From an uncultured candidatus Porisulfidus sp. (GTDB lineage Bacteria > Pseudomonadota > Gammaproteobacteria > Poriferisulfidales > Oxydemutatoraceae): a stretch of 64,000 nucleotides of DNA. How positions within the stretch are numbered: the stretch's first letter is position 1; every line of letters begins with the position of its first letter. The position numbers and the translations under genes were made by a program. The stretch is from the NCBI GenBank assembly GCA_965200865.1, contig CBDAVG010000002.1:2130712-2194711 (forward strand), given 5' to 3'. Of this stretch, positions 751 to 56,170 are shown in pieces. The notes below the pieces were generated by a model. It ran no database searches and was not told the origin of the DNA. It worked only from the letters and a program-made list of their open reading frames with translations.

Positions 751-1009
751 TTTGCCCTCTGTATTTTTACATACTTAGTGTAGCAGTTTTCCCCAGTGTT
801 AGTCGAAAAAGTATCATTACATATATCAAAATCAATCGGCAATACAAGGCCGCCGATTGAGCCAGTAGGTCAATCAGCAATTATATATGTCTGCCTGTAA
901 AATGTCGCGTTAGCATACAATATTGTTTATCATTTAATTCATGAAAACCCTAATTGGAGGCGCAGAGCGGTTGAGATTGTGCAGGTGCAATACTTTAGGG
1001 AGGGCATGT

Positions 1010-2824
1010 GGGACTGTTGAAAAAGTATTTGATATAAGCGAAAATAGATAACTGATTCAATCGGAGGTTTTTATGCAAGGCAATCATAATTTTCAGCCTG
1101 AACTATTTGTCCAAATAGACTATCAGGCACTCATTCCCAGCTATCACATATTAAGGCGTATTGATAAAGTTTTAGACTTGAGCTTTGTCAAACAATTAAC
1201 CCAAAGTTTCTATAGTGATACGCAAGGTAGACCGTCAATAGACCCGGAGGTATTTTTTCGTATGTGTATATTAGGACAACTCTATGGGATTAAGTCGGAT
1301 CGTCAACTGTGCGACGAGGTTGGAATGAACATTGGCTATCGTTGGTTTGTCGGATTAACTATGAGTGATGTGGTGCCGGATCACTCGTCATTAACTCGTA
1401 TCCGCGACCGATTAGGTGTGGGATGTTTTGAGGCGATATTTGAGCGTGTCGTAGAACAATGCCGTGAGGCTGGATTAGTTGAAGGGAAACGGATCATAAC
1501 AGATGCGAGTTTAGTTGAGGCGAATGCGTCGGCGAGGAAACTAGAGAGACGAGAGCAGCCGACTGCGGCAATAGCAGTCAAGGATGAGAGGCAACAAAGC
1601 CAGGAGGTAGTATCACAAACTGCATCAGTAAAAAAAGAAAAAGTCAGCAACCATGCCGATAAAGTAGATGATGATGCGAGTGCGGGCGAGACGAACCTAC
1701 CGGCACAGAAATTGGAGAGGCGAGAAGAACCAACACCAGCAGTAGAAGTTAAGGATGACAAGCAGCAGAGCAAGAGCGCAGTCTCGCCAACTGCGGTAGT
1801 AAAAAAAGAAAAAGTCAGCAACCATGCCGATAAAGTAGATGATGATGCGAGTGCGGGCGAGACAAACCTATCGGCACAGAAACTGGAGAGGCGAGAAGAA
1901 CCAACACCAGCAGTAGAAGTTAAGGATGACAAGCAGCAGAGCAAGAGCGCAGTCTCGCCAACTGCGGTAGTAAAAAGAGAAAAAGTCAGCAACCGCACGC
2001 ATGTGAGTAAAGTAGACAGCGATGCGACTCTAGTCAATCGTGCGGGGTATCCAAGAAAGTTATATCATAAGGTGCATTATTGTGCCGATGCAACCAGCCG
2101 AGTGATAACGGATTGCCATGTGACCACGGGTGCCTATCATGAGACTAATGTGATAACACAGAGGATTCAATATCAACAACAACGCTTTGGCTTGCCGGTT
2201 GAAGAAGTGATAGCAGATGTCGGCTATAGCAGTGGCAAGAATTATAAGTTCTTTGAAGAACACCAGATCCGCAGCTATATCCCGACTGCCAAGTTTCGTC
2301 TGACACCTGGTAAGCAAGTAGCCCATGAAGGCAGTTTCCAGTATGACCCCAATAAAGACATCTATACCTGTCAGGCGGGTCATGCGTTACACCCCAAACA
2401 TGCAGTCGGTGCGACGAAGTATTATCACATCAAGAAAGCACATTGTAATAGCTGTCAATGGCAGAACAGTTGCTACTTGGGCAGGCGTCATACGGGTCTA
2501 TACCGAAATGAGCATAAAGAGGCGATAGAACGAGTGAGACAACGACAAAGCAGTCCAGTATTTAAGCAAAGAATGATAGAAAGGAGTTGGAAGATAGAGG
2601 GTTTATTTGCTGAGGCAAAGGAGCGGCATGGATTGAGGCGAGCAAAATATAGAGGTTCGGATAAAGTGCAGATCCAAGCCTACCTAACTGGGACCGCCCA
2701 GAACCTAAAGAGACTAGCGGTTTCTTTAGATTTTTATTTTCGTTGGATCAGATTTTGGTTTACACAAAGATTTTTATTATTGCGGTGTAGTTTCCAAGGA
2801 TAGAACTACTTTTTCAACAGTCCC
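1010..2824 (+). mobile_element. IS1182-family (IS5 superfamily) insertion sequence, copy 1, with 18-bp TIR GGGACTGTTGAAAAAGTA and 4-bp TSD ATGT
   Basis: Left TIR 1010-1027 and right TIR 2807-2824 are perfect inverted repeats; ATGT at 1006-1009 and 2825-2828; the flanks rebuild the palindrome GGGAGGGCATGT|TAGCCCTCCC that occurs uninterrupted elsewhere (e.g. 13775-13800). Confidence 0.8.
1073..2803 (+). CDS. IS1182-family DDE transposase with three 57-aa linker repeats
   Basis: 576 aa; N-terminal DUF772/InsH-like region '...YSDTQGRPSIDPEVFFRMCILGQLYGIKSDRQLCDEV...RWFVGL'; C-terminal DDE_Tnp_1-like region ending '...QNLKRLA'; 171-bp tandem units starting 1505, 1676, 1847. Confidence 0.8.
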   Translation: MQGNHNFQPELFVQIDYQALIPSYHILRRIDKVLDLSFVKQLTQSFYSDTQGRPSIDPEVFFRMCILGQLYGIKSDRQLCDEVGMNIGYRWFVGLTMSDVVPDHSSLTRIRDRLGVGCFEAIFERVVEQCREAGLVEGKRIITDASLVEANASARKLERREQPTAAIAVKDERQQSQEVVSQTASVKKEKVSNHADKVDDDASAGETNLPAQKLERREEPTPAVEVKDDKQQSKSAVSPTAVVKKEKVSNHADKVDDDASAGETNLSAQKLERREEPTPAVEVKDDKQQSKSAVSPTAVVKREKVSNRTHVSKVDSDATLVNRAGYPRKLYHKVHYCADATSRVITDCHVTTGAYHETNVITQRIQYQQQRFGLPVEEVIADVGYSSGKNYKFFEEHQIRSYIPTAKFRLTPGKQVAHEGSFQYDPNKDIYTCQAGHALHPKHAVGATKYYHIKKAHCNSCQWQNSCYLGRRHTGLYRNEHKEAIERVRQRQSSPVFKQRMIERSWKIEGLFAEAKERHGLRRAKYRGSDKVQIQAYLTGTAQNLKRLAVSLDFYFRWIRFWFTQRFLLLRCSFQG

Positions 2825-2879
2825 ATGTTAGCCCTCCCCTACGGTCTATGACATACTTTTCAGCAATTCCATTTTCCTT

Positions 2880-3854
2880 ATGAATCACGCAAATAATCAG
2901 TCGGTTTCTCTAGGGGTTGTAATGGATCCGATTGCCGAGATAAATCCGCTCAAAGACACCACTCTATGCTTGCTGGAGGCTGCCCAACGAAAAGGTTGGC
3001 AACTCTATTATTTTGAACCCAAAGACCTGCACTTGTATCGGGGGCAGGCGCGGGGACATGCGCGAAATCTAAAGGTCTTCTTAGACCAGAAGCACTGGTT
3101 TGAAGTATCCGCGTCCAAAGACATTGATTTATCCGAACTAGATGTGATATTGATGCGTGCCGACCCGCCGGTAGATACTGAGTTTCTATATACCTGTCAT
3201 ATATTGACGTTTGCCGAACGTGCCGGCACATTGGTGTATAACCCGCCGCGTAGCTTGTTATCTGTCAACGAGAAAATACTCGCTCAGGAATTCGCCGACT
3301 TAGGGCCGCCGACCCTAGTTGGCAATTCATTGGATGATTTGCTAAACTTTTTAGAGTTACACCCTCAAGCGGTAGTCAAACCACTGAACGAAATGGGCGG
3401 GGCTTCGGTATGCAGGATCAACCGCAGCGACGACGATGTGTCCCAAGTACTCAAAACGATGCTTTGCGATGGTCAAAAGACTCTCCTAATCCAAGAACTA
3501 ATCCCCAATTATAGCGACGGTGATAAGCGTGTACTATTGATAGACGACACGCCGGTGCCGTATGGGCTCAACCGTGTTCCGCAGCAAGGTGAGTTCAGAG
3601 CTAATTTGGCTGCCGGAGGTAAAGGTGTGGCTGTGGCATTGAATGACCACGACTATAGGGTTTGTGAGCGCATCGCCCCGCGCCTACAAGAGCTGGACTT
3701 ACTGTTTGTGGGTATTGATTTGGTTGCCGGTTATTTAACTGAGATCAACATCACAAGCCCCACCTGTGTCAGGGAAATCAATCAAGCGTATGCGCTGGAC
3801 ATCGGCAGCGACGTAATCAATGCGATTGAAAAACGTCTGATGTCTCAAGTTTAA
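2880..3854 (+). CDS. gshB: glutathione synthetase (ATP-grasp)
   Basis: 'GVVMDPIAEINPLKD...DVILMRADPP...KPLNEMGGASV...GDKRVLLIDD...NLAAGG' matches GshB along its length; start codon uncertain by a few codons. Confidence 0.85.
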   Translation: MNHANNQSVSLGVVMDPIAEINPLKDTTLCLLEAAQRKGWQLYYFEPKDLHLYRGQARGHARNLKVFLDQKHWFEVSASKDIDLSELDVILMRADPPVDTEFLYTCHILTFAERAGTLVYNPPRSLLSVNEKILAQEFADLGPPTLVGNSLDDLLNFLELHPQAVVKPLNEMGGASVCRINRSDDDVSQVLKTMLCDGQKTLLIQELIPNYSDGDKRVLLIDDTPVPYGLNRVPQQGEFRANLAAGGKGVAVALNDHDYRVCERIAPRLQELDLLFVGIDLVAGYLTEINITSPTCVREINQAYALDIGSDVINAIEKRLMSQV

Positions 3855-4321
3855 TGGACGATAAACATACAAAACGCGATGTGGCGTTGTCGTCGGAACA
3901 TGTGATTGCCTTTGACTACGGGCTGAAATATATCGGTAGTGCGGTGGGCAATATCAAAACGGCAACCGCACAACCCTTACAGACTATTGCGTGCAAGGCT
4001 GGTCAAGCCGATTGGCAAGCGATAGAAAAGATTTGTCAGATTTGGCAACCGTGTCGTTTTGTGGTCGGTTATCCTGACCCCGATTCGCCGCCCAAACTGC
4101 TGAAGCAACTAGACCAGTTTATAAGCCGATTACATCGGCACTTTAACCTGCCAGTAGACAAAGGCAACGAATATCTGAGTTCAATAGAGGCATACCATAG
4201 ACTAAAAAAACAAAGATCGGCAGGAGAAATTGGTAGAATAGCACGCTCGGATATTGACAAAGTTGCTGCTGCCTTGATATTGGAAAGCTGGTTTGAGGCG
4301 CAGCAAACGACAACCCGTTAA
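3854..4321 (+). CDS. ruvX: YqgF/RuvX putative pre-16S rRNA nuclease / Holliday junction resolvase-like
   Basis: 'VIAFDYGLKYIGSAVGN' RNase H-fold YqgF signature; TAATG overlap with the gshB stop suggests translational coupling. Confidence 0.8.
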   Translation: MDDKHTKRDVALSSEHVIAFDYGLKYIGSAVGNIKTATAQPLQTIACKAGQADWQAIEKICQIWQPCRFVVGYPDPDSPPKLLKQLDQFISRLHRHFNLPVDKGNEYLSSIEAYHRLKKQRSAGEIGRIARSDIDKVAAALILESWFEAQQTTTR

Positions 4322-5559: not shown

Positions 5560-5890
5560 CTCACCAAATTTGGGGCTGTTGAAGAGGTATTTCATGCACT
5601 GTAGGGGAGGGCTAGCATGCCCTCCCGAAACGCGACGCGCCTGCACAAGTAGAACCGCCGATTGAGCCAGTAGGTCAATCGGCGTGACATTGTGCAGAAC
5701 CTCAGCATGGTTGCTTGTCGTACATTATCCTTCGTACACCATTCAATTTATGGGAACCAAAATCAAGTGGCGCAAGCGGTTGCAGTAGTGCAGAACGGTA
5801 CTTTAGGGAGGGCATGCTAACCCTCCCCTACGGGTGGTTATCGTAAATTTGATGGCGCGGAGCGGTTGAGTTTATGTGATAGTGGTACTT
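5560..5890. repeat. intergenic cluster of palindromic repeat modules (family-D palindrome GGGAGGGCTAGCATGCCCTCCC, hairpin A GCCGATTGAGCCAGTAGGTCAATCGGC, 'acattgtgcagaac' module, 'ggcgcaagcggttgcag' module)
   Basis: Same modules recur at >15 other intergenic sites in the window. Confidence 0.7.
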
Positions 5891-5892
5891 TG

Positions 5893-8217
5893 TTAGCGCA
5901 TCAGTGCGCCTTCCAACAAGACTCTCACCTGTACTTGCAAAGTAGGAAAGATGCGCAAATCAAAAAGCTCCGTTCGGCTAACCCCGTCTACTCTAGTCGC
6001 AACAATCTCAAGGCGATAATTTCCAGAGCTAATCGGCGTGCCGCTGATGATAGAACCGTTTATTTCCAGACCCAGTGGTAGACCGCTTACCATGTAGGTC
6101 AATGCCTGCGCACTTGCGAAGATATCATCCAGCGTAAAGGAGTAATCTGAACCGCTAGTGCCGTTGGGAAAGGTGATATCTCTGCGTACCGTTATTGGTG
6201 TGCTGGATACTATTGGTATGTCGTTGCTAACAAGTGGGTTTCTGATGTTCGGAACTGTGCTGGTCGTCGCGACAACTTGAAAGAGGTAGTCTCTCGCAAA
6301 GCCGATGCCATCCAACGCAAGATTAAGCTGGACTTGTGTATCGGAAGTGCGGCTTACACTTGCAATGCGCAACCCTGCCGGTGCATTTTGCAAACCAAAG
6401 TCGTTAGGCTGCAAATCTTTTTCCCAACTCGCACCAACCAAAGGCAAAGTCAATGGGGTTCCAGTCACATTGCTGTCCGACAACCCGACAACAGAGGCAG
6501 CATCCATTTTTATTTGATAGCCGCGTATTCTCACTCCCCAATCAATCAAGGTGCCGGTTGTAGCCCTAGTGTCTTCAAATCTCAATCTCCAAACTCCCGA
6601 CGGATCTTCGCCTAAATGAACGCTTGAACCGAAACGCCAAAACCCTCGAGTAGTACTGATTGCATATGAACTGGTACTACTGATGGGATGAGTAGATGGT
6701 ATGAAGAGGTCTGAAGTGTTGCCCGAGGGCGAGGTCAATTTAACGCTTAAATCTTGGATTAAGGGGTGTGTTAATCTGATAGGAATCTCCACATATTCTA
6801 TGAAATTGATATCCGATTGGACGGCTATCTCGCTATTGATAACCGGATTATCGGCACTCAGCCTAAGGTCTAGATTACTATTTCTTACTTCCGTATACGG
6901 TGCTGCCAGAGGAAGATTGATCCATCCATCCGCCATTTCAATCGCTTTTTCTGCATCAACGAGACCGAATCCATGTTTGTGGTTGAAATGATATTGCGCG
7001 TTGTTATCACTGCTGGACAGACCATACTTTACGGCACCTTGCGCCCAGCCGTCGTCTGTGAGGTTGTTTTGCCTTGCCGAATTAGCCAGAATGAGTTTCA
7101 CATCGCGCCAGCTAAGGCTTGGATTGACTTGTCGCATTAATGCCACCACACCGCTGACCATCGGAGCTGCTGCAGAGGTTCCACCAAAACTAAAACGTAT
7201 CAAGGAATGATTGTAGGTTCCTCTAAGAATTCCTCTATAGGTTGTAGTAATCCCTCTGCTGAAAAAGTTTGTCCCAGTTCTTGGATTAAAAGTGTCATCC
7301 CTGGATGGCGCACTGACCCACAAATTGGCACCAAGTTCCGAATGCCCAACATGTCGCCCAAAACGATAACTCACCGCAGATACGGGAATGGTTGCATAAT
7401 GCTTGGCTCTGCCGTCATAATTTGCATTATCTATATCACAGACTTGTTCATAGCGACTGGGCGACACCTGCCTGCTAATACAACGGTCGTTTCCAGCAGC
7501 CCAAACGTAGACTGTGCCTTTACCGTGGAATCCATCCTTAATGCCAGTTTCTATTGCCATTTCCCATGCTGCAAGACGAGAACCAGACGGATTAAAAGGA
7601 TGCGCACTTCCCCAGCTGTTATTGGAAACTGCGGTTATTGTGGTATGACGAACCATTGCGTTTAGGGTTGCCATCTCTCTAGTACTTGCCAACATACTCC
7701 TATTCCCATCGGGCACCCCTAAAATATTCAAGCCATAAATTTTTGCCCAAGGTGCCACACCCCGAACACCTATGTCGTTATAACCGCGTGCCGCAGCAAT
7801 GCCTGCTACGGCAGTAGCATGCCCGCCGGTGTCAATAACCGAAGGATAATAATCAACGCTGTGTTGGGTTGAGATATTGGCTATCAGATCCGGGTGAGCC
7901 AATGTTTGGGTTGTGGCAGGCTGGAGTCCAGTCGGCAGATCTCCGTCTACTATGGCAATGTATGTGCCTTGCCCCCTTATTTTCGTGCGTCCGTCCTTAA
8001 GCGTTTTCTCCCAGACTGGTGCTACATTGATACTCTGAGTATTAGAAATTGTTGAGCCTATAATCTCCTGACCGGACAAGTGCCACTGCCGATCATAACA
8101 AGGGTCGCCACGATCTGATATACAAAATAATTGCTGAGTAGTAGCAGGCTGAATGCCTGTGAATAAAAGCAACATCACCAGGACTTTTGCCAATGTTCTC
8201 AAAATCAAAATATTCAA
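5893..8217 (-). CDS. secreted subtilisin/kexin-like S8 serine protease with proprotein-convertase P-domain and C-terminal beta-rich repeats
   Basis: 774 aa; signal peptide 'MNILILRTLAKVLVMLLLFTG'; catalytic triad contexts 'AIVDGDL', 'GGHATAVAGI', 'GGTSAAAPMVSG'; paralogue of 8481..11519. Confidence 0.8.
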   Translation of the reverse strand: MNILILRTLAKVLVMLLLFTGIQPATTQQLFCISDRGDPCYDRQWHLSGQEIIGSTISNTQSINVAPVWEKTLKDGRTKIRGQGTYIAIVDGDLPTGLQPATTQTLAHPDLIANISTQHSVDYYPSVIDTGGHATAVAGIAAARGYNDIGVRGVAPWAKIYGLNILGVPDGNRSMLASTREMATLNAMVRHTTITAVSNNSWGSAHPFNPSGSRLAAWEMAIETGIKDGFHGKGTVYVWAAGNDRCISRQVSPSRYEQVCDIDNANYDGRAKHYATIPVSAVSYRFGRHVGHSELGANLWVSAPSRDDTFNPRTGTNFFSRGITTTYRGILRGTYNHSLIRFSFGGTSAAAPMVSGVVALMRQVNPSLSWRDVKLILANSARQNNLTDDGWAQGAVKYGLSSSDNNAQYHFNHKHGFGLVDAEKAIEMADGWINLPLAAPYTEVRNSNLDLRLSADNPVINSEIAVQSDINFIEYVEIPIRLTHPLIQDLSVKLTSPSGNTSDLFIPSTHPISSTSSYAISTTRGFWRFGSSVHLGEDPSGVWRLRFEDTRATTGTLIDWGVRIRGYQIKMDAASVVGLSDSNVTGTPLTLPLVGASWEKDLQPNDFGLQNAPAGLRIASVSRTSDTQVQLNLALDGIGFARDYLFQVVATTSTVPNIRNPLVSNDIPIVSSTPITVRRDITFPNGTSGSDYSFTLDDIFASAQALTYMVSGLPLGLEINGSIISGTPISSGNYRLEIVATRVDGVSRTELFDLRIFPTLQVQVRVLLEGALMR

Positions 8218-8265: not shown

Positions 8266-8474
8266 GAGACTGTTGAAAAAGTACCGTCATCAAACAAACT
8301 TAACCGCCATGCGCCACTTGGTTTTGGTTTCCACAAACGAAATAAATGAATGGATTGTTTTTGCAGACGCAACGCGTTTCGGGAGGGCATGATAGCCCTC
8401 CCCTACCAGTATCGTAAATTCGATGGCACATAGTGGTTCAATTTGTGCAAAAATGATACTTTTTCAATAGCCCC
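8266..8474. mobile_element. MITE (~209 bp) carrying IS1182-family-type TIRs
   Basis: Starts 'gagactgttgaaaaagta', ends 'tactttttcaatagcccc'; internal family-D palindrome and 'ccatgcgccacttggttttggtttcca' module. Confidence 0.7.
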
Positions 8475-20274: not shown

Positions 20275-20313
20275 TACTACCACCCAATGTGACTAATACA
20301 ATGGGGTGACATG

Positions 20314-20461
20314 GGACTGTTGAAAAAGTGTCTGCATTAGTACATTCCCCTCCTTTGGAGGGGTGGCAGGCGAAGCCTGACGGGGTGGTTGTTAAGGTTC
20401 TGAACAATGTTACGCCGATTGACCTACTGGCTCAATCGGCGGTTCTATTTTTCAACAGCCC
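20314..20461. mobile_element. MITE (~148 bp) with IS-type TIRs, flanked by ACAT(G) direct repeats
   Basis: 'gggactgttgaaaaagtg' ... 'tctatttttcaacagcccc'; internal hairpin E and hairpin A; 'acatg' at 20309-13 and 20462-66. Confidence 0.7.
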
Positions 20462-20647
20462 CACATGTTCTCCCGTAACGCGTTGCGCCTGCAAAAACAA
20501 TCCATTCATGCGTTTCGTTTATGGAAACCATACAGATGGCGCAGGTGGTTGGAATCGTACAGATACGACACGCTCGGATGGTTTGCATGATTATGTGGCG
20601 CATAGCGGTTAAGATGGTACAGGTACAATACTTTAGGGAGGGCATGT

Positions 20648-22297
20648 GGGACTGTTGAAAAAGTATTTGATATAAGCGAAAATAGACAACTGATTCAACC
20701 GGAGATTTTTATGCAAGGCAATCATAACTTTCAGCCTGAACTATTTGTCCAAATAGACTATCAGGCACTCATTCCTACCAATCATTTATTAAGGCGTATC
20801 AATAAAGTTTTAGACTTGCGCTTTGTTAAACAATTAACCAAAAGTTTTTATAGTGATACGCAAGGTAGACCGTCAATAGACCCGGAAGTGTTTTTCCGTA
20901 TTTGTATATTAGGACACATTTATGGGATTAAATCAGATCGTCAATTGTGTGACGAGGTAGCAATGAACCTCGCCTATCGTTGGTTCGTCGGATTAACGAT
21001 GAGTGATGAGGTGCCGGATCATTCGTCATTAACTCGTGTTCGAGATAGATTGGGAGTTGGATGTTTTGCGTCGGTATTTGAGCAAATAGTAGAACAATGC
21101 CGTGATGCCGGCTTAGTGCCTGGCAAGCGTATCATAACGGATGCGAGTTTAGTAGAGGCGAATGCGTCGGCGAGGAAACTAGAGAGACGAGAGCAGCCGG
21201 CACAGGCAATAGAAGTCAAGGATGAGAGTCAACAAAGCAAGGAAGTAGTGTCACAAACTGCGGTAGTAAAAAGAGAAAAAGTCAGCACCCGTACCCATGC
21301 CGGTAAAGTAGATGGTGATGCGAGTTTAGTTGAGGCGAATGCATCGGCACAGAAATTAGAGAAGCGAGAGGAGCCAATACCAGCAGTAGAAGTTAAGAAT
21401 GAGAAGCAGCAAAGCAAAGCAGCGGTCTCGCAAACTGCGGTAATAAAAAGAGAAAAAGTCAGCAATCGCACGCATGTGAGTAAAGTAGACAGCGATGCGA
21501 CTTTAGTCAATCGTCAGGGGTATCCAAGAAAGTTATATCATAAGGTGCATTATTGTGCCGATGCAGCTAGCCGGGTGATAACCGATTGCCATGTGACCAC
21601 GGGTGCCTATCATGAGACTAATGTGATAACACAGAGGATTCAATATCAACAAGAACGTTTTGGATTGCCGGTTGAAGAGGTGATAGCAGATGTCGGCTAC
21701 AGCAGTGGCAAGAATTATAAGTTCTTTGAAGAACACCAGATACGCAGCTATATCCCGACTGCCAAGTTTCGTCTGACGCCTGGTAAGCAAGTAGCCCATG
21801 AAGGCAATTTCCAGTATGACCCCAATAAAGACATCTATACCTGTCAAGCGGGTCATGCGTTACATCCCAAACCTGCAGTCGGCGCAACGAAGTATTACCA
21901 TATCAAGAAAGCACATTGTAATAGTTGTCAATGGCAGAATAGTTGCTACTTGGGCAGGCGTCATACGGGTCTATACCGAAATGAGCATAATGCGGCGATA
22001 GAACGAGTAAGACAACGACAAAGCGGTCCAGTCTTTAAGCAAAAAATGATAGAAAGAAGCTGGAAGATAGAGGGCTTATTTGCTGAGGCAAAGGAGCGGC
22101 ATGGGTTGAGGCGGGCAAAATATAGAGGTTTGGAGAAAACGCAGATCCAAGCCTACCTAACTGGGACCGCTCAGAACCTAAAGAGGCTAGCGGTTTCTTT
22201 AGATTTTTATTTTCATTGGATCAGATTTCAGTTTATACAAAGATTTTTATTATTGCGGTATAGTTTCCAAGGATAAAGCTACTTTTTCAACAGCCCG
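20648..22297 (+). mobile_element. IS1182-family insertion sequence, copy 2 (165 bp shorter than copy 1), TSD ATGT
   Basis: TIRs 20648-20665 / 22280-22297; ATGT at 20644-47 and 22298-301; again inserted in GGGAGGGCATGT|TAGCCCTCCC. Confidence 0.8.
20711..22276 (+). CDS. IS1182-family DDE transposase, two 57-aa linker repeats
   Basis: 521 aa, ~90% identical to 1073..2803 outside the repeat region. Confidence 0.8.
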   Translation: MQGNHNFQPELFVQIDYQALIPTNHLLRRINKVLDLRFVKQLTKSFYSDTQGRPSIDPEVFFRICILGHIYGIKSDRQLCDEVAMNLAYRWFVGLTMSDEVPDHSSLTRVRDRLGVGCFASVFEQIVEQCRDAGLVPGKRIITDASLVEANASARKLERREQPAQAIEVKDESQQSKEVVSQTAVVKREKVSTRTHAGKVDGDASLVEANASAQKLEKREEPIPAVEVKNEKQQSKAAVSQTAVIKREKVSNRTHVSKVDSDATLVNRQGYPRKLYHKVHYCADAASRVITDCHVTTGAYHETNVITQRIQYQQERFGLPVEEVIADVGYSSGKNYKFFEEHQIRSYIPTAKFRLTPGKQVAHEGNFQYDPNKDIYTCQAGHALHPKPAVGATKYYHIKKAHCNSCQWQNSCYLGRRHTGLYRNEHNAAIERVRQRQSGPVFKQKMIERSWKIEGLFAEAKERHGLRRAKYRGLEKTQIQAYLTGTAQNLKRLAVSLDFYFHWIRFQFIQRFLLLRYSFQG

Positions 22298-22390
22298 ATG
22301 TTAGCCCTCCCCTACCGTTTTCTTAAATTTAATGGCGCGAAGCGGTTGAGTTTTTACAATGGCAGTACTTTTTCAACAGCCCCACATTTC
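22298..22390. repeat. palindrome half + MITE right-end remnant
   Basis: 'atgttagccctcccctacc...ggcgcgaagcggttgag...gtactttttcaacagcccc'. Confidence 0.5.
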
Positions 22391-35611: not shown

Positions 35612-35724
35612 GAAAGCCTCCCGCGACCGCTAATCTTCGGCACCCAGTCCCATTGCTACCGTTGCTTCCTTCCGAACCTGGCGGGGTTCACAACAAACTG
35701 CCGCGAAGGAGCCGTCGCGAAAGA
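35612..35724 (-). ncRNA. ffs: signal recognition particle RNA (4.5S, ffs)
   Basis: Minus strand '...ccaggttcGGAAggaagcaacggtagcaatgggactgg...' matches SRP domain IV (E. coli 'CCAGGUCCGGAAGGAAGCAGCCAAGGCAG'); 5'/3' arms 'cgcgacggctccttcgcggcag' / 'ctgggtgccgaagattagcggtcgcggg' pair; TATAAT -10 at 35732-37 (minus); usual position upstream of dnaX. Confidence 0.6.
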
Positions 35725-35744
35725 CTACAATATTATACCTTATC

Positions 35745-36290
35745 TGGGGCTGTTGAAAAAGTATCTGCATCAGTACATTCCCCTCCTTTGGAGGGGTGGC
35801 AGGCCTATGCATCTTGTAATGTATGCGTCTAGCAATCATGCTAGGGTTCTGCACAATGTCACGCCGATTGACCTACTGGCTCAATCGGCGGTTCTATCTG
35901 ACGGGGTGGTTGTTAAGGTTCTGAACAATGTCACGCCGATTGACCTACTGGCTCAATCGGCGGTTCTATTTTTCAACAGTCTCACATGGGACTGTTGAAA
36001 AAGTACTATCATTGCACAAATTGAACCACTATGTGCTATATAATTTATGAAAACCGTAAGGGCGGATTTATATATCCGCCCTACGGTACCGTCCTGCAAA
36101 ACCGTAACCGCTTTGCGCCACAAGATTATGGTTTGCATAAATTTGATGGATGAATGTATAAATCGTGCAAGTACGTCGCGTTAGGGCGGATATATAAATC
36201 CGCCCCTACGGTGTATGGAATACTTTTTCAACAGTCCCACATGCCCTCCCCTACGGCTCAAGGATACTTCTTCAACAGCCCTGCAAGGGT
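35745..36290. repeat. MITE cluster including a complete MITE 35988..36238 flanked by ACAT direct repeats, hairpin A x2, hairpin B x2, hairpin E
   Basis: 'acat|gggactgttgaaaaagta ... tactttttcaacagtccc|acatgccctccc'. Confidence 0.7.
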
Positions 36291-37919: not shown

Positions 37920-38150
37920 ATGCGGAACCACAACTTAGACTACATGTGTAGGGGAGGGCTAGCATGCCCTCCCTAAAGTACCGTTCTGCACCAACAAAAC
38001 CGCTTGCGTCACTTGGTTTTGGTTTCCATGAATTGGATGGTGTACGAAGGATAATGTACGACAAGCAACCATGTTAAGGTTCTGCACAATGTTACGCCGT
38101 TTGTTGCAGCGGCAACAATAGGCAGTTCTATTTTGTAACAGCTCCAATAT
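37920..38150. repeat. repeat cluster (family-D palindrome, 'caccaacaaaaccgcttgcgtcacttggttttggtttccat' module, hairpin 'gccgtttgttgcagcggcaacaa')
   Basis: shared modules. Confidence 0.6.
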
Positions 38151-40189: not shown

Positions 40190-40620
40190 TGTGGCTGTTG
40201 AAAAATAGAACTGCCGTTTGTTGCCATTGCAACAAACGGCGTAACATTGTGCAGAACCAAAACGTAAACTATATGTGTAGGAGCGGACAATTGAAATGCC
40301 ACTTGACCTACTGGCTCAAGTGGCGGCTTTATTCTGCCCTAACGCGACGTACTTGCACGATTTATACATTCATCCATCAAATTTATGCAAACCATAATCT
40401 TGTGGCGCAAAGCGGTTACGGTTTTGCAGGATGGTACCGTAGGGCGGATATATAAATCCGCCCCTACCGTTATCGTTAATTTGGTGGCGCAAGCGGTTAC
40501 GTTTGGGTGATGACAGTACTTTTCAACAGCCCCATTCATCCATTTCGTTTAAGGTAACCATGATTTAATGGCGCAAAGCGGTTGAAGTTGTGCACAACGG
40601 TACTTTTTCAACAGCCCTGG
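40190..40620. repeat. MITE cluster (left TIR variant 'ctgttgaaaaatag', hairpin 'gccgtttgttgccattgcaacaaacggc', hairpin B, two right TIRs)
   Basis: TIR and hairpin modules. Confidence 0.65.
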
Positions 40621-42686: not shown

Positions 42687-43033
42687 GGAACTGTTGAAAA
42701 AGTACCGTCATCGCATGAATCCAACCGCTTGCGCCATTGAATTTACGAAAATGGTAGGGGCGGATTTGCATATCCGCCCTAAAGTTGAGTCCTCACACAA
42801 ATCTACCCGCTCTGCGCCACCAAATCATGGTTACCGTAAACGAAATGAATGAATGTATTGATTGTGCAGACGTGCCACAACCACCCCGTCAGATAGAACC
42901 GCCGATTGAGCCAGTAGATCAATCGGCGTAACATTGTGCAGAACTCCAGCATGATTGCTAAACGCATACATTACAAAATGCATAGGCCTGCCACCCCTCC
43001 AAAGGAGAGGAATATCACTTTTTCAACAGCCCC
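42687..43033. mobile_element. composite MITE (~347 bp) with IS-type TIRs and nested hairpin modules
   Basis: 'ggaactgttgaaaaagtaccgtcatcgc...' to '...atcactttttcaacagcccc'; contains hairpin B, hairpin A, 'acattgtgcagaac', hairpin E. Confidence 0.7.
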
Positions 43034-44158: not shown

Positions 44159-45859
44159 ATGAGTAGTTTTTTTTCAAAGGAGCGGATTGTAGCTAAAGAA
44201 GGGTTTAATCGTTGGCGCGTACCACCGGCATCCATTGCGATACACCTTTGCATTGGTTCAGTCTATGCGTGGAGTATTTACAACCCGGCATTGACCAAAG
44301 TCGTCGGTGTCGTTGCCAGTTCTGCCGACGATTGGACTTTAACCGAAGTTGTCTGGATTTTCACCGTTGCCATTTTAGTTTTAGGGCTTGCTGCGGCGTT
44401 TGCCGGCAAATGGCTTGAGAAGGTCGGGCCACGCACAGTAGGCATCGTTGCTGCCTTTTGCTGGGGAGGTGGTTATATAGTAGGCAGTCTGGGCATCTAC
44501 TTGAATCAAGTATGGCTACTTTATCTCGGCTACGGTGTAATCGGTGGTTGCGGTTTAGGTTTGGGTTATGTCTCACCAGTCAGTACTTTGATCCGTTGGT
44601 TCCCCGACCGGCGTGGCATGGCAACCGGAATGGCAATTATGGGTTTCGGTGGCGGCGCAATGCTGGGAACACCTCTGAAAGAGTATTTCCTTCAAAAATT
44701 TTACCATGCCCCTGAGTATTTAGGTTCAGTTGATAGTTTGAGTTTAATCACTGAAGCTGGTAGACGCTTTGTGGAAATAGGCGGCGAATTAAAAGAAGTG
44801 GTGGTGGTCAGTGCAAACGAAGTTTCCGGCATGATTGTTCCAGGAGATCCCGGCGTTTATCTACTCGGCACAGGTTCGGTCGGTGCATGGCAGACATTCT
44901 TATTTATCGGTTTAATTTATTTTGTTGTGATGCTGATCGCAGCATTGAGCTACCGTATTCCTCGCGAGGGTTGGACCCCCGAAGGTTGGACACCGCCGAG
45001 TGAATCCGTTGCCGCTAAGAAAATGATAACCCAAGGCAATGTAGACATAGACCAAGCATTGAAAACACCGCAATTCTATCAACTATGGATTGTTTTATGC
45101 TTCAATGTCACCGCCGGTATTGGTGTTATCGGCGTTGCCAAGACAATGGTGACAGATATCTTTGGCTCCGCTTTGCCGGGCATAGTAGACGGTGCCTTTG
45201 CCGCAACTTATGTTTTGATGATCAGCGTATTTAATATGATCGGTAGAGTATTGTGGGCAGGTTCGTCTGATTTTATCGGGCGCAAAAACACCTATTGGAT
45301 ATTTTTTGTCGGCGGTATCATACTTTATTTATCTATCCCATTTGCGGCGCAACAAGTGAGTGTCCATCCTACGGTATTCTGGCTGGTATTTTTCTATGCA
45401 GCAACGATGATTATATTCACATTTTACGGCGGTGGTTTTGCAACCATTCCTGCATATTTGGCAGATATTTTTGGCACCCACCATGTCGGTGGTATCCACG
45501 GTAGGCTACTGACCTCATGGAGTACCGCTGGTGTATTAGGACCACTTGCTATTACAACTTTGCGTCAAAACTCGCTCAGCAATTCAATTCACGAATTAGC
45601 TGCCAAAGTTGATCCTGCAAGATTTGCCGAAACATTCGGAGCAGGAATTGATAAACTGGATTTATTGATTGAAAAAAAGACCGTGACACTTGCCAAGTTG
45701 TTGGAAATCTCACCGCCGGGAACCGTAGACCCTACGCCCAGTCTGTATAACACAACGATGTATTTGATGGCGTTTTTACTACTCATAGCCCTGATATCAA
45801 ATGCGTTTATGAAGCCGGTGCATCCCAAGCACTATATGAAAGGTGAAAAATCAGCATAG
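44159..45859 (+). CDS. MFS transporter, oxalate/formate antiporter (OFA) family, copy 1
   Basis: 566 aa, 12 TM; ~90% identical to 46766..48466. Confidence 0.7.
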   Translation: MSSFFSKERIVAKEGFNRWRVPPASIAIHLCIGSVYAWSIYNPALTKVVGVVASSADDWTLTEVVWIFTVAILVLGLAAAFAGKWLEKVGPRTVGIVAAFCWGGGYIVGSLGIYLNQVWLLYLGYGVIGGCGLGLGYVSPVSTLIRWFPDRRGMATGMAIMGFGGGAMLGTPLKEYFLQKFYHAPEYLGSVDSLSLITEAGRRFVEIGGELKEVVVVSANEVSGMIVPGDPGVYLLGTGSVGAWQTFLFIGLIYFVVMLIAALSYRIPREGWTPEGWTPPSESVAAKKMITQGNVDIDQALKTPQFYQLWIVLCFNVTAGIGVIGVAKTMVTDIFGSALPGIVDGAFAATYVLMISVFNMIGRVLWAGSSDFIGRKNTYWIFFVGGIILYLSIPFAAQQVSVHPTVFWLVFFYAATMIIFTFYGGGFATIPAYLADIFGTHHVGGIHGRLLTSWSTAGVLGPLAITTLRQNSLSNSIHELAAKVDPARFAETFGAGIDKLDLLIEKKTVTLAKLLEISPPGTVDPTPSLYNTTMYLMAFLLLIALISNAFMKPVHPKHYMKGEKSA

Positions 45860-46439: not shown

Positions 46440-46700
46440 AAATGGTAGGGGAGGGCTAACATGCCCTCCCTAGAGTATTGTACTTGTACCATCTCATCCG
46501 CCACGCGCCACCAAATCATGGTTACCGTAAACGAAATGGATGAATGGATTGTTTGTGCAGACGCAACGCGTTAGGGCGGATATATAAATCCGCCCCTACA
46601 TTTCGTTTCACATTGTGGTTTTGAACAACATGTTCAGGTTCTGTACGAAGTTACATCGATTGACCTACTGGCTCAATCGGCAGCTTTATTCTGCCCCTAC
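46440..46700. repeat. repeat cluster (family-D palindrome, hairpin B, hairpin A)
   Basis: shared modules. Confidence 0.6.
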
Positions 46701-49269: not shown

Positions 49270-49410
49270 CTGTTAGGGTGGCCACACTGCCCTTCCTAAC
49301 GCATTGTCCTTGTACCATTTCAATCGCTTCGCACCATCTGTATGATTACCGTAAACGAAATGGATGAATGAATTGTTCGTGCGAGGACAACGCGTTTGGG
49401 AGGGCATGTG
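49270..49410. repeat. repeat cluster (palindrome half, 'ccatttcgtttacggtaatcat' module)
   Basis: shared modules. Confidence 0.5.
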
Positions 49411-49750
49411 GGACTGTTGAAAAAATACTGTCATCGCCCAAACGTAACCGCTTGTGCCATTGAATTTACGAAAACGGTAGGGGCAGAACAAAGCCGCCGA
49501 TTGAGCCAGTAGGTCAATCGGCATTTCAATTATCCGCCCTATGGTACCGCCCTGCAAAACCGTAACTGCTTTGCGCCACAAGATTATGTTTTGCATAAAT
49601 TTGATGGATGAATGTATAAATCGTGCAAGTACATCGCGTTAGGGCGGATATATAAATCCGCCCCTACCCATGTAGTTTACGCTGTGGTTCTGGACAGTGG
49701 AAATGCCGATTGACCTACTGGCGCAAGCGGTTCTATTTTTCAATAGCCCC
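49410..49750. mobile_element. MITE (341 bp) with IS-type TIRs and ATGT target duplication; hairpin A nested in the loop of hairpin B
   Basis: 'gggagggcATGT|gggactgttgaaaaaatactgtcatcgc ... tctatttttcaatagccccc|ATGT'; internal '...ggtaggggcag[aacaaagccgccgattgagccagtaggtcaatcggcatttcaatt]atccgccctatgg...'. Confidence 0.75.
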
Positions 49751-55480: not shown

Positions 55481-56170
55481 GGGCTGTTGAAAAAAAAACA
55501 GCACAGAACGATATATAAAATAAAACCGCCGATTGAGCCAGTAGGTCAATCGGCATTTCCATTGTCCAGAACCACAGCGTAAACTACATGGGTAGGGGCG
55601 GATTTATATATCCGCCCTACGGTACCGTTCCGCACAAACGTAACCGCTTGCGCTCCCAAATCATGCAAACCATTTGCCGCATACTCGCACAACCCCTCCC
55701 GCCTTGCGTCACCGAGTCATGGTTACCGTAAATAAAATGGATAAATGGGACTGCTGAAAAAGTACCGTCATTGCACAAACGTAACCGCTTGCGCCATTAA
55801 ATTTAAGAAAATGGTAGGGGCAGAATAAAGCCGCCGATTGAGACAGTAGTTCAATCGGCAATTTTAATATCCGCCCTACGGTACCGTCCTGCAAAACCGT
55901 AACCGCTTTGCGCCACAAGATTATGGTTTGCATAAATTTGATGGATGAATGTATAAATCGTGCAAGTACGTCGCGTTAGGGCGGATATATAAATCCGCCC
56001 CTCCGGTTCAAGAAATACTTTTTCAACAGTCCCATGTTAGCCCTCCCCTACGGTAGGTTCCCATAAACGAAATGAATGGAGTGTTTTTACAGACGTGCCA
56101 CAACCACCCCGTCAGGCTGCGCCTGCCACCCCTCCACAGGAGGGGAATACCACTTTTTCAACAACCCCAT
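55481..56170. repeat. MITE cluster: nested/adjacent MITEs (left TIRs at 55481 and 55747, right TIRs at 56043 and 56168) with hairpin A inside hairpin B twice
   Basis: 'gggactgctgaaaaagtaccgtcattgc...tactttttcaacagtccc|atgttagccctcccctacgg'. Confidence 0.7.

What the first reader, a model, noticed from the sequence alone, without database searches (positions are those of the whole stretch)
1006..2828. IS1182-family element inserts into the centre of a genome-wide palindrome with 4-bp ATGT/ACAT target duplication; its 18-bp TIRs are shared by dozens of MITEs
Both IS copies (1010..2824 and 20648..22297) are bounded by perfect 18-bp TIRs GGGACTGTTGAAAAAGTA and flanked by ATGT. Removing the IS in silico regenerates GGGAGGGCATGTTAGCCCTCCC, an imperfect palindrome that occurs intact at 5600, 5810, 8385, 13775, 37955, 46450 and 63370. 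At least 8 short elements (150-350 bp) carry the same TIRs and show the same ACAT/ATGT duplication, several again inside the palindrome. Well-defined examples are 8266..8474, 20314..20461, 35988..36238, 42687..43033, 49410..49750, 55747..56043 and 63003..63250. This is a palindrome (REP-like) targeting IS with a large family of non-autonomous derivatives. It explains most of the repeats in the window.
Basis: seen in the sequence. Interest (0 to 1): 0.7.

Follow-up and report, generated by a model that had tools for sequence, protein, structure and literature searches.

The report
Palindrome-loop-targeting IS1182 element with MITEs
A jumping gene of the IS1182 family lands precisely in the loop of one short repeated DNA hairpin, duplicating the four bases ATGT, and shares its 18-base ends with many small gene-less copies that carry that same hairpin around; the behaviour is real and cleanly documented, but it belongs to a kind already known.

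Summary
The core finding holds. Window 1010..2824 and 20648..22297 are two intact copies of an unnamed IS1182-family insertion sequence. Each has 18-bp inverted ends and sits between duplicated ATGT inside the 22-bp palindrome GGGAGGGC-ATGTTA-GCCCTCCC (P1).

A 96%-identical contig from another metagenome carries the same gshB-upstream locus without the IS, with one ATGT in an intact P1. That is a direct empty site.

Across the window and related sponge-symbiont contigs, 11 of 13 copies of this IS lie in P1, in both orientations. A sister palindrome with the same stem-loop geometry (P2) is never hit: 0 of 13, against 8 of 15 for P1.

The same ends bound about 9 paired short elements and about 10 solo ends in the window. 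Only 3-4 of the pairs show the ATGT/ACAT duplication.

P1 is not a free-standing REP. It is one module of a BIME-like mosaic, and it is carried inside the MITEs themselves. One P1-bearing MITE is present or absent between close relatives.

A sister IS lineage (49-67% identical transposase, the same ends) targets a different repeat module with a 5-bp duplication.

Palindrome targeting is already reported for IS1182 members, and REP-loop targeting for other IS families. I rate this a new member of a known kind, of moderate interest.

The parts
1010..2824 (+). IS copy 1 (1815 bp), IS1182 family, intact
   Evidence: Perfect 18-bp TIRs. Single 576-aa ORF. Orthologous empty site in L098.
1010..1027 (+). 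Left TIR GGGACTGTTGAAAAAGTA
2807..2824 (-). Right TIR, identical to the left
1073..2803 (+). Transposase gene (576 aa): DUF772 N-terminal domain, repeat linker, DDE_Tnp_1_6 catalytic domain
   Evidence: Pfam. NCBIfam NF033551 at 379 bits against cut-off 270.
1627..1994 (+). 171-bp tandem repeat (2.2 copies) inside the transposase gene. It encodes a charged linker whose copy number varies between IS copies.
   Evidence: TRF; alignments
1006..1009 (.). Target-site duplication ATGT, left copy
   Evidence: Single ATGT in the empty site.
2825..2828 (.). Target-site duplication ATGT, right copy
998..1005 (.). Left arm GGGAGGGC of the split palindrome P1
2829..2838 (.). Rest of the P1 loop (TA) and right arm GCCCTCCC
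2854..2870 (-). Decayed TIR (TACTTTTCAGCAATTCC) 15 nt beyond P1. The P1 hit by IS copy 1 therefore sits inside an old MITE end. The same sequence is present at the empty site in L098.
20648..22297 (+). IS copy 2 (1650 bp). Right TIR has 2 mismatches. About 91% identical to copy 1, with a 165-bp shorter linker. ATGT at 20644-20647 and 22298-22301, in P1.
20711..22276 (+). Transposase gene of copy 2 (521 aa)
5605..5626 (.). Intact P1 (loop ATGCTA), 15 nt inside TIR-like end 5572-5589
5806..5827 (.). Intact P1 (loop ATGCTA, one arm mismatch)
8381..8402 (.). Intact P1 (loop ATGATA) inside MITE 8266..8474
13771..13792 (.). Intact P1 (exact), 15 nt inside TIR end 13808-13825
37952..37973 (.). Intact P1 (loop ATGCTA)
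46449..46470 (.). Intact P1 (exact)
63369..63390 (.). Intact P1 (exact)
63001..63250 (.). MITE (250 bp) in a complete P1 with ACAT duplication. Its interior holds two P2 palindromes.
20313..20462 (.). MITE (150 bp) with ACAT duplication in a degenerate P1
35988..36238 (.). MITE (251 bp) with ACAT duplication. Its right flank is the P1 right arm, 14 nt inside TIR 36265-36282. Its left flank abuts MITE 35746..35983.
35746..35983 (.). MITE (238 bp), no matching duplication
49410..49750 (.). MITE (341 bp). Left flank is the P1 left arm plus ATGT. On the right, ATGT lies 1 nt beyond the TIR. No P1 right arm.
55747..56033 (.). MITE (287 bp). Right flank is ATGT plus the P1 right arm. Left flank is AAAT with no P1 arm.
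8266..8474 (.). MITE (209 bp) with no duplication, not in P1
42687..43033 (.). MITE (347 bp) with no duplication. At the orthologous site, L089 holds a different MITE with a GTAT duplication.
11716..11733 (+). Solo TIR end flanked by the P1 left arm plus ATAT
22366..22383 (-). TIR end of the outer MITE whose internal P1 received IS copy 2

Best explanation
Window 1010..2824 and 20648..22297 are two intact copies of an unnamed IS1182-family insertion sequence. I call this lineage IS-A.

What is shown:
- Its single DDE transposase joins the 18-bp inverted ends to target DNA with a 4-bp stagger on the tetranucleotide ATGT, and this duplicates ATGT.
- The strongly preferred site is the ATGT at the start of the 6-nt loop of a 22-bp palindromic unit, P1 (GGGAGGGC-ATGTTA-GCCCTCCC). 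The site is within 1 bp of the symmetry centre.
- Insertion occurs in either orientation.
- P1 is one interchangeable module of a BIME-like mosaic of intergenic repeats. Heterogeneous MITEs are built from those modules and bounded by the same TIRs.
- Some MITEs carry P1 internally, so their spread creates new landing pads and nested insertions.

What is inferred:
- Target choice is sequence-specific, not just hairpin-specific. A sister palindrome of the same geometry is never used, and a sister IS lineage with the same ends uses a non-palindromic motif.
- The MITEs are moved in trans by this family of transposases.
For: Family:
- NF033551 (IS1182) scores 379 and 388 bits against a cut-off of 270. 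Pfam finds DUF772 plus DDE_Tnp_1_6.
- The TIR core TGTTGAAAAAGT is shared with transposases only 27-41% identical from other bacteria.

Insertion and duplication:
- L098, an ENA contig about 96% identical, has the gshB-upstream locus with an intact GGAAGGGC-ATGT-TAGCCCTCCC and no IS.
- Window 885-1009 aligns to L098 15-139, and window 2824-3851 aligns to L098 135-1162. The only extra sequence in the window is the IS plus a second ATGT.

Target preference:
- 11 of 13 IS-A copies are in P1: window x2, L001 x2, L002, L003, L004, L005, L087 and L093 x2. Nine of the 10 complete copies in P1 have a perfect 4-bp duplication. Orientation relative to the asymmetric loop is 6 against 5.
- 56 of 111 TIR ends are directly flanked by ATGT or ACAT, against a background of 0.9% per position.
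- In the window, 8 of 15 P1 units are occupied against 0 of 13 P2 units (Fisher p = 0.0025).
- P1 units with an ATGT loop: 8 occupied, 3 empty. P1 units with an ATGC or ATGA loop: 0 occupied, 4 empty (p = 0.026).
- P1 and P2 both fold as an 8-bp stem with a 6-nt loop, at -11.4 and -10.6 kcal/mol.

MITEs:
- They share only the TIRs with the IS.
- In the window, MITEs 63001-63250, 20313-20462 and 35988-36238 have the ACAT duplication in P1. So do L004 9626-9791 and L005 17160-17309.
- Mobility is shown by two filled/empty pairs. L089 10459-10744 is filled where window position ~45855 is empty. L098 1163-1428 is filled where window ~3853 and L099 are empty.
- The L098 MITE carries an intact P1 and a P2.

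Sister lineage IS-B:
- Its transposase is 49-67% identical and its TIR is GGGGCTGTTGAAAAAGTA.
- All 4 copies are in GGGGTGGTTGT|NNCGT|ATCTGCAC with a 5-bp duplication.
- That motif occurs 9 times in the window, always empty.
Against: - No transposition was observed experimentally.
- Only about 35% of TIR ends (39 of 111) are in P1. Several window MITEs have no matching duplication or only half a P1. Their history must include recombination, deletion or other transposases.
- Two IS-A copies and a MITE in L092 sit in a non-P1 site, separated by 4 bp. One of those copies has ATGT on one side and ACAT on the other.
- The left flanks of the two window IS copies are about 88% identical over 50 bp. 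Independent insertion, rather than duplication with flank, therefore cannot be proven for that pair alone.
- Which transposase moves which MITE is inference.
- Counts come from about 64 kb plus about 250 kb of related loci, not from whole genomes.
Confidence: 0.82

Rival explanations
1. The GGGAGGGC arms are part of the element (a longer, roughly 30-bp TIR). Intact palindromes would then be abutted ends or excision footprints, not targets.
For: In a 41%-identical relative from Ca. Thiodiazotropha, the same TIR core is extended outward by 14 nt that are inverted repeats of each other. These are in turn flanked by a 7-bp direct repeat.
Against: - The orthologous empty site has an intact P1 with conserved flanks and no IS.
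- Two IS-A copies lie outside P1 (L092).
- P1 alternates with P2 in the same mosaic slots.
- No direct repeat lies outside the arms.
- P1 occurs inside MITE bodies.
Confidence: 0.02
2. The IS is not targeted. IS-plus-flank units were copied around by segmental duplication or recombination between mosaic repeats, which gives the appearance of a common target.
For: The left flanks of the two window copies are homologous for about 50 bp. Flanks fall into a few repeat classes. Half-sites show that recombination does occur.
Against: - Both orientations relative to the asymmetric loop occur, 6 against 5.
- Different left-flank classes (acgcgttt or ggtacttta) are combined with different right flanks.
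- Different elements (the IS and several MITE types) occupy the identical position.
- The filled and empty alleles differ only by the IS plus 4 bp.
Confidence: 0.06
3. Targeting depends only on structure: any extruded hairpin or cruciform is hit, as described for IS1272/TnSha1 of the same family. P1 would simply be the commonest hairpin.
For: - IS1272 and TnSha1 insert into hairpins with no primary-sequence consensus (PMC4923244, PMC5678879).
- P1 folds stably.
- Some non-P1 sites are also locally palindromic, for example CTAC-ATGT-GTAG at L005 12362-12502.
Against: - P2 has the same geometry and stability and about the same abundance, yet is never hit: 0 of 13.
- The duplicated bases are always ATGT or ACAT.
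- P1 variants with ATGC or ATGA loops are all empty.
- There is a precise 4-bp duplication and no stem-loop deletion, unlike IS1272.
- The sister lineage targets a non-palindromic motif.
Confidence: 0.07
4. Insertion goes to any ATGT. The enrichment in P1 reflects survival, because only insertions in harmless intergenic repeats persist.
For: 19 of 111 ends have ATGT or ACAT without P1. All elements seen are intergenic.
Against: The window has 137 non-coding ATGT/ACAT sites, of which P1 supplies about 11. Yet 8 of about 12 ATGT-flanked insertion events are in P1. P2-containing repeats are equally harmless and are unused.
Confidence: 0.05

Closest known systems
IS1182 family insertion sequences (ISfinder), including IS1272/TnSha1 of staphylococci
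   Same: - Homologous single-ORF DDE transposase (NF033551 above cut-off).
- Short TIRs with a conserved TGTTGAAAAAGT core in relatives.
- Family members are reported to target palindromes or hairpins (PMC4923244 and PMC5678879, both citing Siguier et al. 2015).
- Wan et al. sketched a loop-only duplication pathway as a possibility (PMC5678879, Fig 13 pathway c).
   Different: - IS1272/TnSha1 show no primary-sequence specificity, no target duplication, and delete part of the hairpin.
- This element uses one defined palindrome, always ATGT, with a clean 4-bp duplication and no deletion.
- The transposase is at most 44% identical to anything outside its own small clade.
- It carries a variable tandem-repeat linker.
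IS1397 / ISKpn1 (IS3 family) and other REP-targeting IS (ISPa11, ISPpu9, ISPpu10, IS621 of IS110; ISRm22 of IS4)
   Same: Highly specific insertion into repeated extragenic palindromic units of BIME-like arrays (PMC1525189, PMC3184786, PMC3333891). This is the same ecological logic: a safe, multi-copy intergenic landing pad.
   Different: The transposase families and chemistries are unrelated (IS3 with two ORFs and a frameshift; IS110 DEDD). No IS1182-family example is listed among the five families in Tobes & Pareja 2006 (PMC1525189). Here the landing pad is also cargo of MITEs that carry the IS's own ends.
Bacterial MITEs with a cognate IS (e.g. Nezha/ISNpu3, RUP, Correia)
   Same: Short TIR-bounded elements without a transposase. 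The TIRs match an autonomous IS. There are flanking duplications and filled/empty polymorphism between relatives (PMC3184786).
   Different: The interiors are not deletion derivatives of the IS. They are mosaics of at least five interchangeable end modules and palindromic units. Duplications are of two lengths (4 and 5 bp), matching two transposase lineages.
REP / BIME repeats of gammaproteobacteria
   Same: 22-bp GC-rich imperfect palindromes, intergenic and multi-copy, in two sequence types (P1, P2), alternating in orientation with conserved linkers.
   Different: Association with a RAYT (TnpA-REP) is untested. Linkers are about 100 bp. Many units lie inside TIR-bounded MITEs, which suggests dispersal by a DDE transposase rather than by a Y1 enzyme.

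Membership tests
IS1182 family | Transposase matches the family profile above the curated cut-off | tested here: met
   NF033551 scores 379.2 and 388.4 bits against cut-off 270, covering model positions 6-486 of 488. Pfam finds DUF772, DDE_Tnp_1_6 and DDE_Tnp_1.
IS1182 family | Single transposase ORF in an element of about 1.3-1.95 kb with terminal inverted repeats (size range recalled from ISfinder) | tested here: met
   1815 and 1650 bp, one ORF each, 18-bp TIRs.
IS1182 family | Target duplication within the family's reported range (0-60 bp, recalled from ISfinder) | tested here: met
   4 bp (ATGT), confirmed by the empty site. A 38%-identical relative also shows 4 bp (GGGA).
IS1182 family | Catalytic DDE triad present | tested here: inconclusive
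   D144, D382 and the R-x-W-x-I-E-x-x-F-x-x-x-K motif are conserved among intact copies in alignment A2. The catalytic role was not tested, and no structure was modelled.
MITE | Short (under about 500 bp), no transposase, TIRs matching an autonomous IS of the same genome | tested here: met
   About 9 paired elements of 150-347 bp, with TIRs 0-4 mismatches from the IS TIR.
MITE | Same target duplication as the cognate IS | tested here: inconclusive
   3-4 of about 9 window pairs have ATGT/ACAT on both sides. Others have none, or half-sites. Relatives show 4-bp (GTAT, ACAT) and 5-bp (AGCAT) duplications.
MITE | Evidence of mobility (filled against empty orthologous sites) | tested here: met
   L089 10459-10744 is filled where the window (~45855) is empty. 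L098 1163-1428 is filled where the window (~3853) and L099 are empty. No empty site was obtained for a window MITE lying in P1.
REP/BIME | 20-40 nt imperfect GC-rich palindrome, extragenic, many copies | tested here: met
   P1 has 15 units (7 intact) and P2 has 13 units in 64 kb, all between ORFs. Hairpin of -11.4 kcal/mol. Genome-wide copy number was not measured.
REP/BIME | Clustered in alternating orientation with conserved linkers | tested here: met
   For example 62987-63390, 13506-13792 and the MITE interiors. There are two left-flank classes and one right-flank class.
REP/BIME | Associated RAYT / TnpA-REP (Y1 transposase) gene | not tested
   Only 10 window ORFs were scanned and none is a Y1 transposase.
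IS1272-type stem-loop-replacing transposition | Insertion into hairpins with loss of stem-loop sequence and no target duplication | tested here: not met
   Both arms are retained and 4 bp are duplicated.
IS1397/ISKpn1 (IS3 family REP-loop inserters) | IS3-family two-ORF transposase with programmed frameshift | tested here: not met
   Single IS1182-type ORF. The resemblance is in behaviour only.

The most novel reading that the evidence does not exclude
The IS, its MITEs and the palindromes form a self-reinforcing system. MITEs moved by the transposase carry the transposase's own landing pad (P1), so each MITE insertion seeds further safe sites.

Two transposase lineages with the same TIRs have diverged to recognise different modules of the same mosaic, with different staggers. 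One uses ATGT (4 bp) in the P1 loop. The other uses NNCGT (5 bp) in GGGGTGGTTGT..ATCTGCAC.

This would be a natural matched pair for mapping how an IS5/IS1182-type DDE transposase encodes target sequence and stagger.
Probability: 0.4. Interest if true: 0.6.

Novelty: new member of a known kind. Interest (0 to 1): 0.4.

Why it matters
It gives a clean, sequence-level example of target-specific insertion by an IS1182-family transposase, backed by a natural empty site. For this family, palindrome targeting had been noted mostly without detail, or in a different, duplication-free form.

The matched sister lineage has the same ends but a different target and stagger. The P1/P2 contrast has the same hairpin geometry but different use. 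Together they make target recognition directly testable by domain swaps and loop mutations.

It also shows how repeat-dense intergenic regions of an uncultured sponge symbiont are built: MITEs carry the landing pads for further insertions. This matters for assembling and annotating such genomes.

It does not reveal a new kind of mobile element.

Tried and rejected
- Metagenome scan with the transposase. It returned only relatives about 30% identical, from soil. No close copies were found, so it was no use for target tabulation.
- Automated TIR detection on those distant loci. The output was mostly noise. Only L041/L044 gave a clear 19-bp TIR (CGATGGTGTTGAAAAAGTC). I therefore could not test whether palindrome-centre insertion is general in the family.
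- Exact-protein look-ups for the window's GshB and for the 100%-identical RNase T protein P0241. Nothing was on record. The cluster listing gave no names.
- Using the RNase T gene to fetch an orthologous locus for IS copy 2 and MITE 20313-20462.
- tblastn of window proteins against the Ca. Porisulfidus loci, to compare IS and host divergence. No orthologues fell in the fetched stretches.
- Rfam scan. No known RNA family matches the MITEs or palindromes; only an SRP RNA was found.
- Extended-TIR hypothesis and duplication-with-flank hypothesis. Both were rejected on the empty site and on orientation data (see rivals).
- A 5-bp reading of the IS-A duplication. Rejected: the flanks are CATGT on one side and ATGTT on the other.
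- Similarity between the TIR tip (GGGAC) and the P1 arm (GGGAGGGC) as a recognition cue. It is only 4 nt and was not pursued.
- Papers on IS1397 (PMC94167) and the FEMS review on IS (PMC7190074) are not held.
Full report
**Observation**

Reading 900..2950 shows an 1815-bp element at 1010..2824. It has perfect 18-bp inverted ends GGGACTGTTGAAAAAGTA and a single 576-aa ORF (1073..2803). ATGT lies on both sides, and the outer flanks are GGGAGGGC and TAGCCCTCCC.

A second copy is at 20648..22297. It is about 91% identical and its ORF is 165 bp shorter. Its right end has two mismatches (CGGGCTG...), so it is not perfect as claimed. It has the same ATGT and palindrome flanks.

The TIR occurs 26 times with up to 3 mismatches, against 0.04 expected. 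The reconstituted palindrome GGGAGGGCATGTTAGCCCTCCC (P1) occurs 7 times intact with up to 2 mismatches, against 0 expected. Those copies are at 5605, 5806, 8381, 13771, 37952, 46449 and 63369. Three are exact and four have loops ATGCTA or ATGATA.

**Family**

Both transposases match NCBIfam NF033551 (IS1182 family) at 379 and 388 bits against a cut-off of 270. Pfam finds DUF772 plus DDE_Tnp_1_6 and DDE_Tnp_1.

In a 5.8-billion-protein search there is a small clade at 49-94% identity. After that, identity drops to 44% or less.

Transposases 27-41% identical from soil, Ca. Thiodiazotropha and another MAG have TIRs with the same core TGTTGAAAAAGT. One of them has a 4-bp duplication.

The family assignment and the TIR and duplication properties are therefore compatible.

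**Source and relatives**

The window itself is not in the searchable genome set. One window protein is 100% identical to a protein recorded on a 2,491,028-bp NCBI/ENA contig, but no name could be retrieved.

Related copies come from three sources:
- a 2.88-Mb MAG labelled uncultured Candidatus Porisulfidus sp. (OZ241323.1; L001-L005). Porisulfidus is described as a gammaproteobacterial sponge symbiont (PMC12988363).
- ENA assembly ERZ25067984 (L087-L093).
- ENA assembly ERZ27276926 (L098).

L089 is syntenic with window 39.7-47.3 kb at 89-96% identity.

**Direct proof of the insertion**

L098 is the orthologous gshB locus. Its GshB is 98% identical and its DNA about 96% identical.

It reads ...gcaatactttaGGAAGGGC ATGT TAGCCCTCCCctacggtctatgacatacttttcagcaattcc... 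with no IS. Window 885-1009 aligns to L098 15-139, and window 2824-3851 aligns to L098 135-1162.

The only difference is therefore the IS plus a second ATGT. This fixes the element's boundaries, the 4-bp duplication and the target. It also rules out the idea that the palindrome arms belong to the IS.

**Target preference**

I call this lineage IS-A. Its left subterminal sequence is tttgatataagcgaaaata.

- Of 13 copies in the window and related loci, 11 are in P1.
- Nine of the 10 complete copies in P1 have a perfect ATGT/ACAT duplication. L087 has ACAT on one side and ATAT on the other.
- The IS left end faces the GGGAGGGC-ATGT side in 6 copies and the GGGAGGGCTA-ACAT side in 5. Insertion is therefore orientation-independent.
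- Over all 111 TIR-like ends in these sequences, 39 abut a P1 half, 19 more abut ATGT or ACAT alone, and 53 abut neither.
- That makes 56 of 111 ends next to ATGT/ACAT, against a background of 0.9% per position.

P1 folds as an 8-bp stem with the 6-nt loop ATGTTA (-11.4 kcal/mol). The duplicated ATGT is the first four loop bases, 1 bp off the symmetry centre.

A sister palindrome, P2 (GGGCGGAT-ATATAA-ATCCGCCC), has the same length, the same geometry (-10.6 kcal/mol) and the same flanking motifs. It has 13 copies in the window and none is occupied. By contrast, 8 of 15 P1 units are occupied (p = 0.0025).

P1 units with an ATGT loop are occupied in 8 cases and empty in 3. P1 units with an ATGC or ATGA loop are occupied in 0 cases and empty in 4 (p = 0.026).

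The window has 137 non-coding ATGT/ACAT sites, of which P1 supplies about 11. Yet about 8 of 12 ATGT-flanked insertion events are in P1.

The choice is therefore sequence-specific, and not explained by hairpin structure or by ATGT alone. Some non-P1 sites are again locally palindromic, for example CTAC-ATGT-GTAG at L005 12362-12502.

**What the palindrome is**

P1 is not free-standing. It has conserved flanks...gcaacgcgttt or ...acggtacttta on the left, and ctacNgtggtt..cgtaaa on the right. It alternates with P2 in the same slots, about 100 bp apart and in alternating orientation. This is a BIME-like mosaic.

Many units lie inside TIR-bounded elements or 14-60 bp inside a TIR:
- 5605 (TIR 5572-5589)
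- 13771 (TIR 13808-13825)
- 8381 (inside MITE 8266-8474)
- the P1 hit by IS copy 1 (decayed TIR 2854-2870, also present in the empty allele)
- the P1 hit by IS copy 2 (TIR 22366-22383)
- the P1 hit by MITE 35988-36238 (TIR 36265-36282)

L098 carries a 266-bp MITE (1163-1428) exactly at the gshB/ruvX junction.
- It is absent in the window (caagtttaatgg at about 3850) and in L099.
- It contains an intact P1 and a P2.
- It extends GshB by five codons (P0121 is 329 aa against 324).

MITE transposition therefore disseminates the landing pad, and nested insertions are expected and seen.

**MITEs**

In the window, the paired elements are 8266-8474, 20313-20462, 35746-35983, 35988-36238, 42687-43033, 49410-49750, 55747-56033 and 63001-63250, plus a complex at 40191-40618. 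There are about 10 solo ends.

They share nothing with the IS beyond the TIR. Their subterminal sequences fall into at least five interchangeable types, combined as B-A, B-E, B-D, B-B, C-E and C-A.

| Group | Elements |
|---|---|
| Clean ATGT/ACAT duplications | 20313-20462 (degenerate P1), 35988-36238 (half P1), 63001-63250 (full P1); in relatives L004 9626-9791 and L005 17160-17309 |
| P1 arm on one side only | 49410-49750, 55747-56033 |
| No duplication | 8266-8474, 42687-43033 |

A further filled/empty pair is L089 10459-10744. It has a 5-bp AGCAT duplication, and the window site at about 45855 is empty.

The MITE claim is therefore right in kind, but the population is heterogeneous and partly rearranged. 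By length, the IS copies plus TIR-bounded MITEs are about 5.5 kb of the 16.7 kb of repeated sequence.

**Sister lineage**

Transposases P0008, P0009 and P0012 are 49-67% identical to those of the window. They sit in elements with TIR GGGGCTGTTGAAAAAGTA. I call this lineage IS-B.

All four copies (L088-L091) lie in the motif gacGGGGTGGTTGT|NNCGT|ATCTGCAC with a 5-bp duplication. The duplications are CTCGT and GGCGT (both perfect), and two with one mismatch.

That motif is not palindromic. It occurs 9 times in the window, always empty.

The N-terminal DUF772 domains of the two lineages are nearly identical. Differences concentrate after the second catalytic D and in the Cys/His-rich insertion. 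This is only a lead for where target choice might reside.

**Mechanism**

Shown:
- element boundaries, the 4-bp stagger at ATGT, and loop position
- both orientations
- sequence selectivity between P1 and P2
- MITE mobility, and P1 as MITE cargo

Inferred:
- A DDE transposase dimer or synaptic complex recognises P1, as duplex or as an extruded hairpin, and joins the 3' ends 4 bp apart.
- MITEs are mobilised in trans.

The outcome resembles the hypothetical loop-only duplication pathway drawn by Wan et al. for this family (PMC5678879). However, only 4 of the 6 loop bases are duplicated, and the cut positions are asymmetric with respect to the two loops. This again points to sequence reading rather than structure alone.

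**Comparison with known systems**

- IS1272/TnSha1, of the same family, target hairpins. They do so without sequence specificity, without duplication and with deletion of the hairpin (PMC4923244, PMC5678879).
- Both of those papers note that Siguier et al. 2015 reported palindrome targeting by some IS1182 members, without detailed data.
- REP-specific insertion is established for IS1397/ISKpn1 (IS3), IS621, ISPa11 and ISPpu9/10 (IS110), ISRm22 (IS4) and others (PMC1525189, PMC3184786, PMC3333891).
- MITEs with cognate IS elements are commonplace.

This is therefore a new, unnamed member of known kinds. The less usual features are the landing pad being MITE cargo and the retargeted sister lineage.

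**Verdict**

- Novelty: new member of a known kind.
- Interest: 0.4.

Noticed in passing
window 1627-1994; alignment A2: The transposase gene contains a 171-bp tandem repeat. It encodes a charged linker of about 55 aa per unit between the DUF772 domain and the DDE core. Copy number differs between IS copies, giving proteins of 515-584 aa. This is unusual for IS1182 transposases, which are typically about 450-490 aa.
   Followed up: partly
L088 9938-11725, L089 1092-2879, L090 5351-7141, L091 1120-3089; window 24928, 25178, 42864, 52023 and others: A sister IS lineage has the same TIRs. It inserts into GGGGTGGTTGT|NNCGT|ATCTGCAC with a 5-bp duplication. The window holds 9 empty copies of that motif and no such IS.
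   Followed up: partly
L092 94-3764: Two IS copies and a MITE lie head to tail, separated by exactly 4 bp: ATGT-IS-ATGT-IS-ACAT-MITE-ACAT. They sit in a non-P1 site whose two flanks are inverted repeats of each other (caaagtacaaATGT and gtaagcacaaagtagtaATGT). This could be repeated insertion into the duplicated ATGT, or a tandem-dimer intermediate. A similar TIR-ACAT-TIR junction is at window 35983/35988.
   Followed up: no
L098 1163-1428 against window 3850-3856: A MITE inserted exactly at the overlapping stop/start codons of gshB and ruvX. It supplies a new stop codon, so GshB is 329 aa instead of 324, and it keeps the ruvX ATG.
   Followed up: partly
window 13506-63179 (13 sites, e.g. 36184-36205, 63034-63055): A second 22-bp palindrome family, P2 (GGGCGGAT-ATATAA-ATCCGCCC), occupies the same mosaic slots as P1. 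There is also a third hairpin (GCCGATTGA-N9-TCAATCGGC, about 11 copies) and a CCCCTCC-TTTG-GAGGGG unit.
   Followed up: partly
window 44159-45859 and 46766-48466: Tandem duplicate genes for a 566-aa MFS transporter of the L-lactate/oxalate-formate antiporter type, about 90% identical. The same arrangement is in L089.
   Followed up: no
window 5893-8217 and 8481-11519 (- strand): Two adjacent paralogous subtilase/proprotein-convertase P-domain proteins, one with leucine-rich repeats. Such eukaryote-like domains fit a sponge symbiont. They account for the 5909-8032 against 9340-11352 self-similarity.
   Followed up: partly
window 35621-35717 (- strand): Bacterial small SRP RNA (Rfam RF00169, 66.6 bits). 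It lies 29 bp from MITE 35746-35983.
   Followed up: no
L094 1405-3007 and L095 (Ca. Thiodiazotropha MAG GCA_044326245.1): A 41%-identical IS1182 transposase has the TIR core CGGGCTGTTGAAAAAGTA. Outside it lie 14 nt whose outer 9 (TGTAGAAGT) are inverted repeats of each other, and the whole is flanked by a TGTAAAT direct repeat. This is either a long TIR or another palindrome insertion.
   Followed up: no
L006 (JAPORV010000112.1, labelled Aestuariivita sp.): A 2.9-kb contig binned to an alphaproteobacterium carries an IS-B-type left end and a MITE end of this family. It is probably a mis-binned fragment from a sponge-symbiont gammaproteobacterium.
   Followed up: no
window 42687-43033, L087 16221, L089 7300-7502: The same 30-nt left flank (aatattgtgttcgttagaaacagtacgtat) is followed by MITEs with different interiors in three genomes. 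This suggests replacement or recombination of MITE content at one orthologous site.
   Followed up: no
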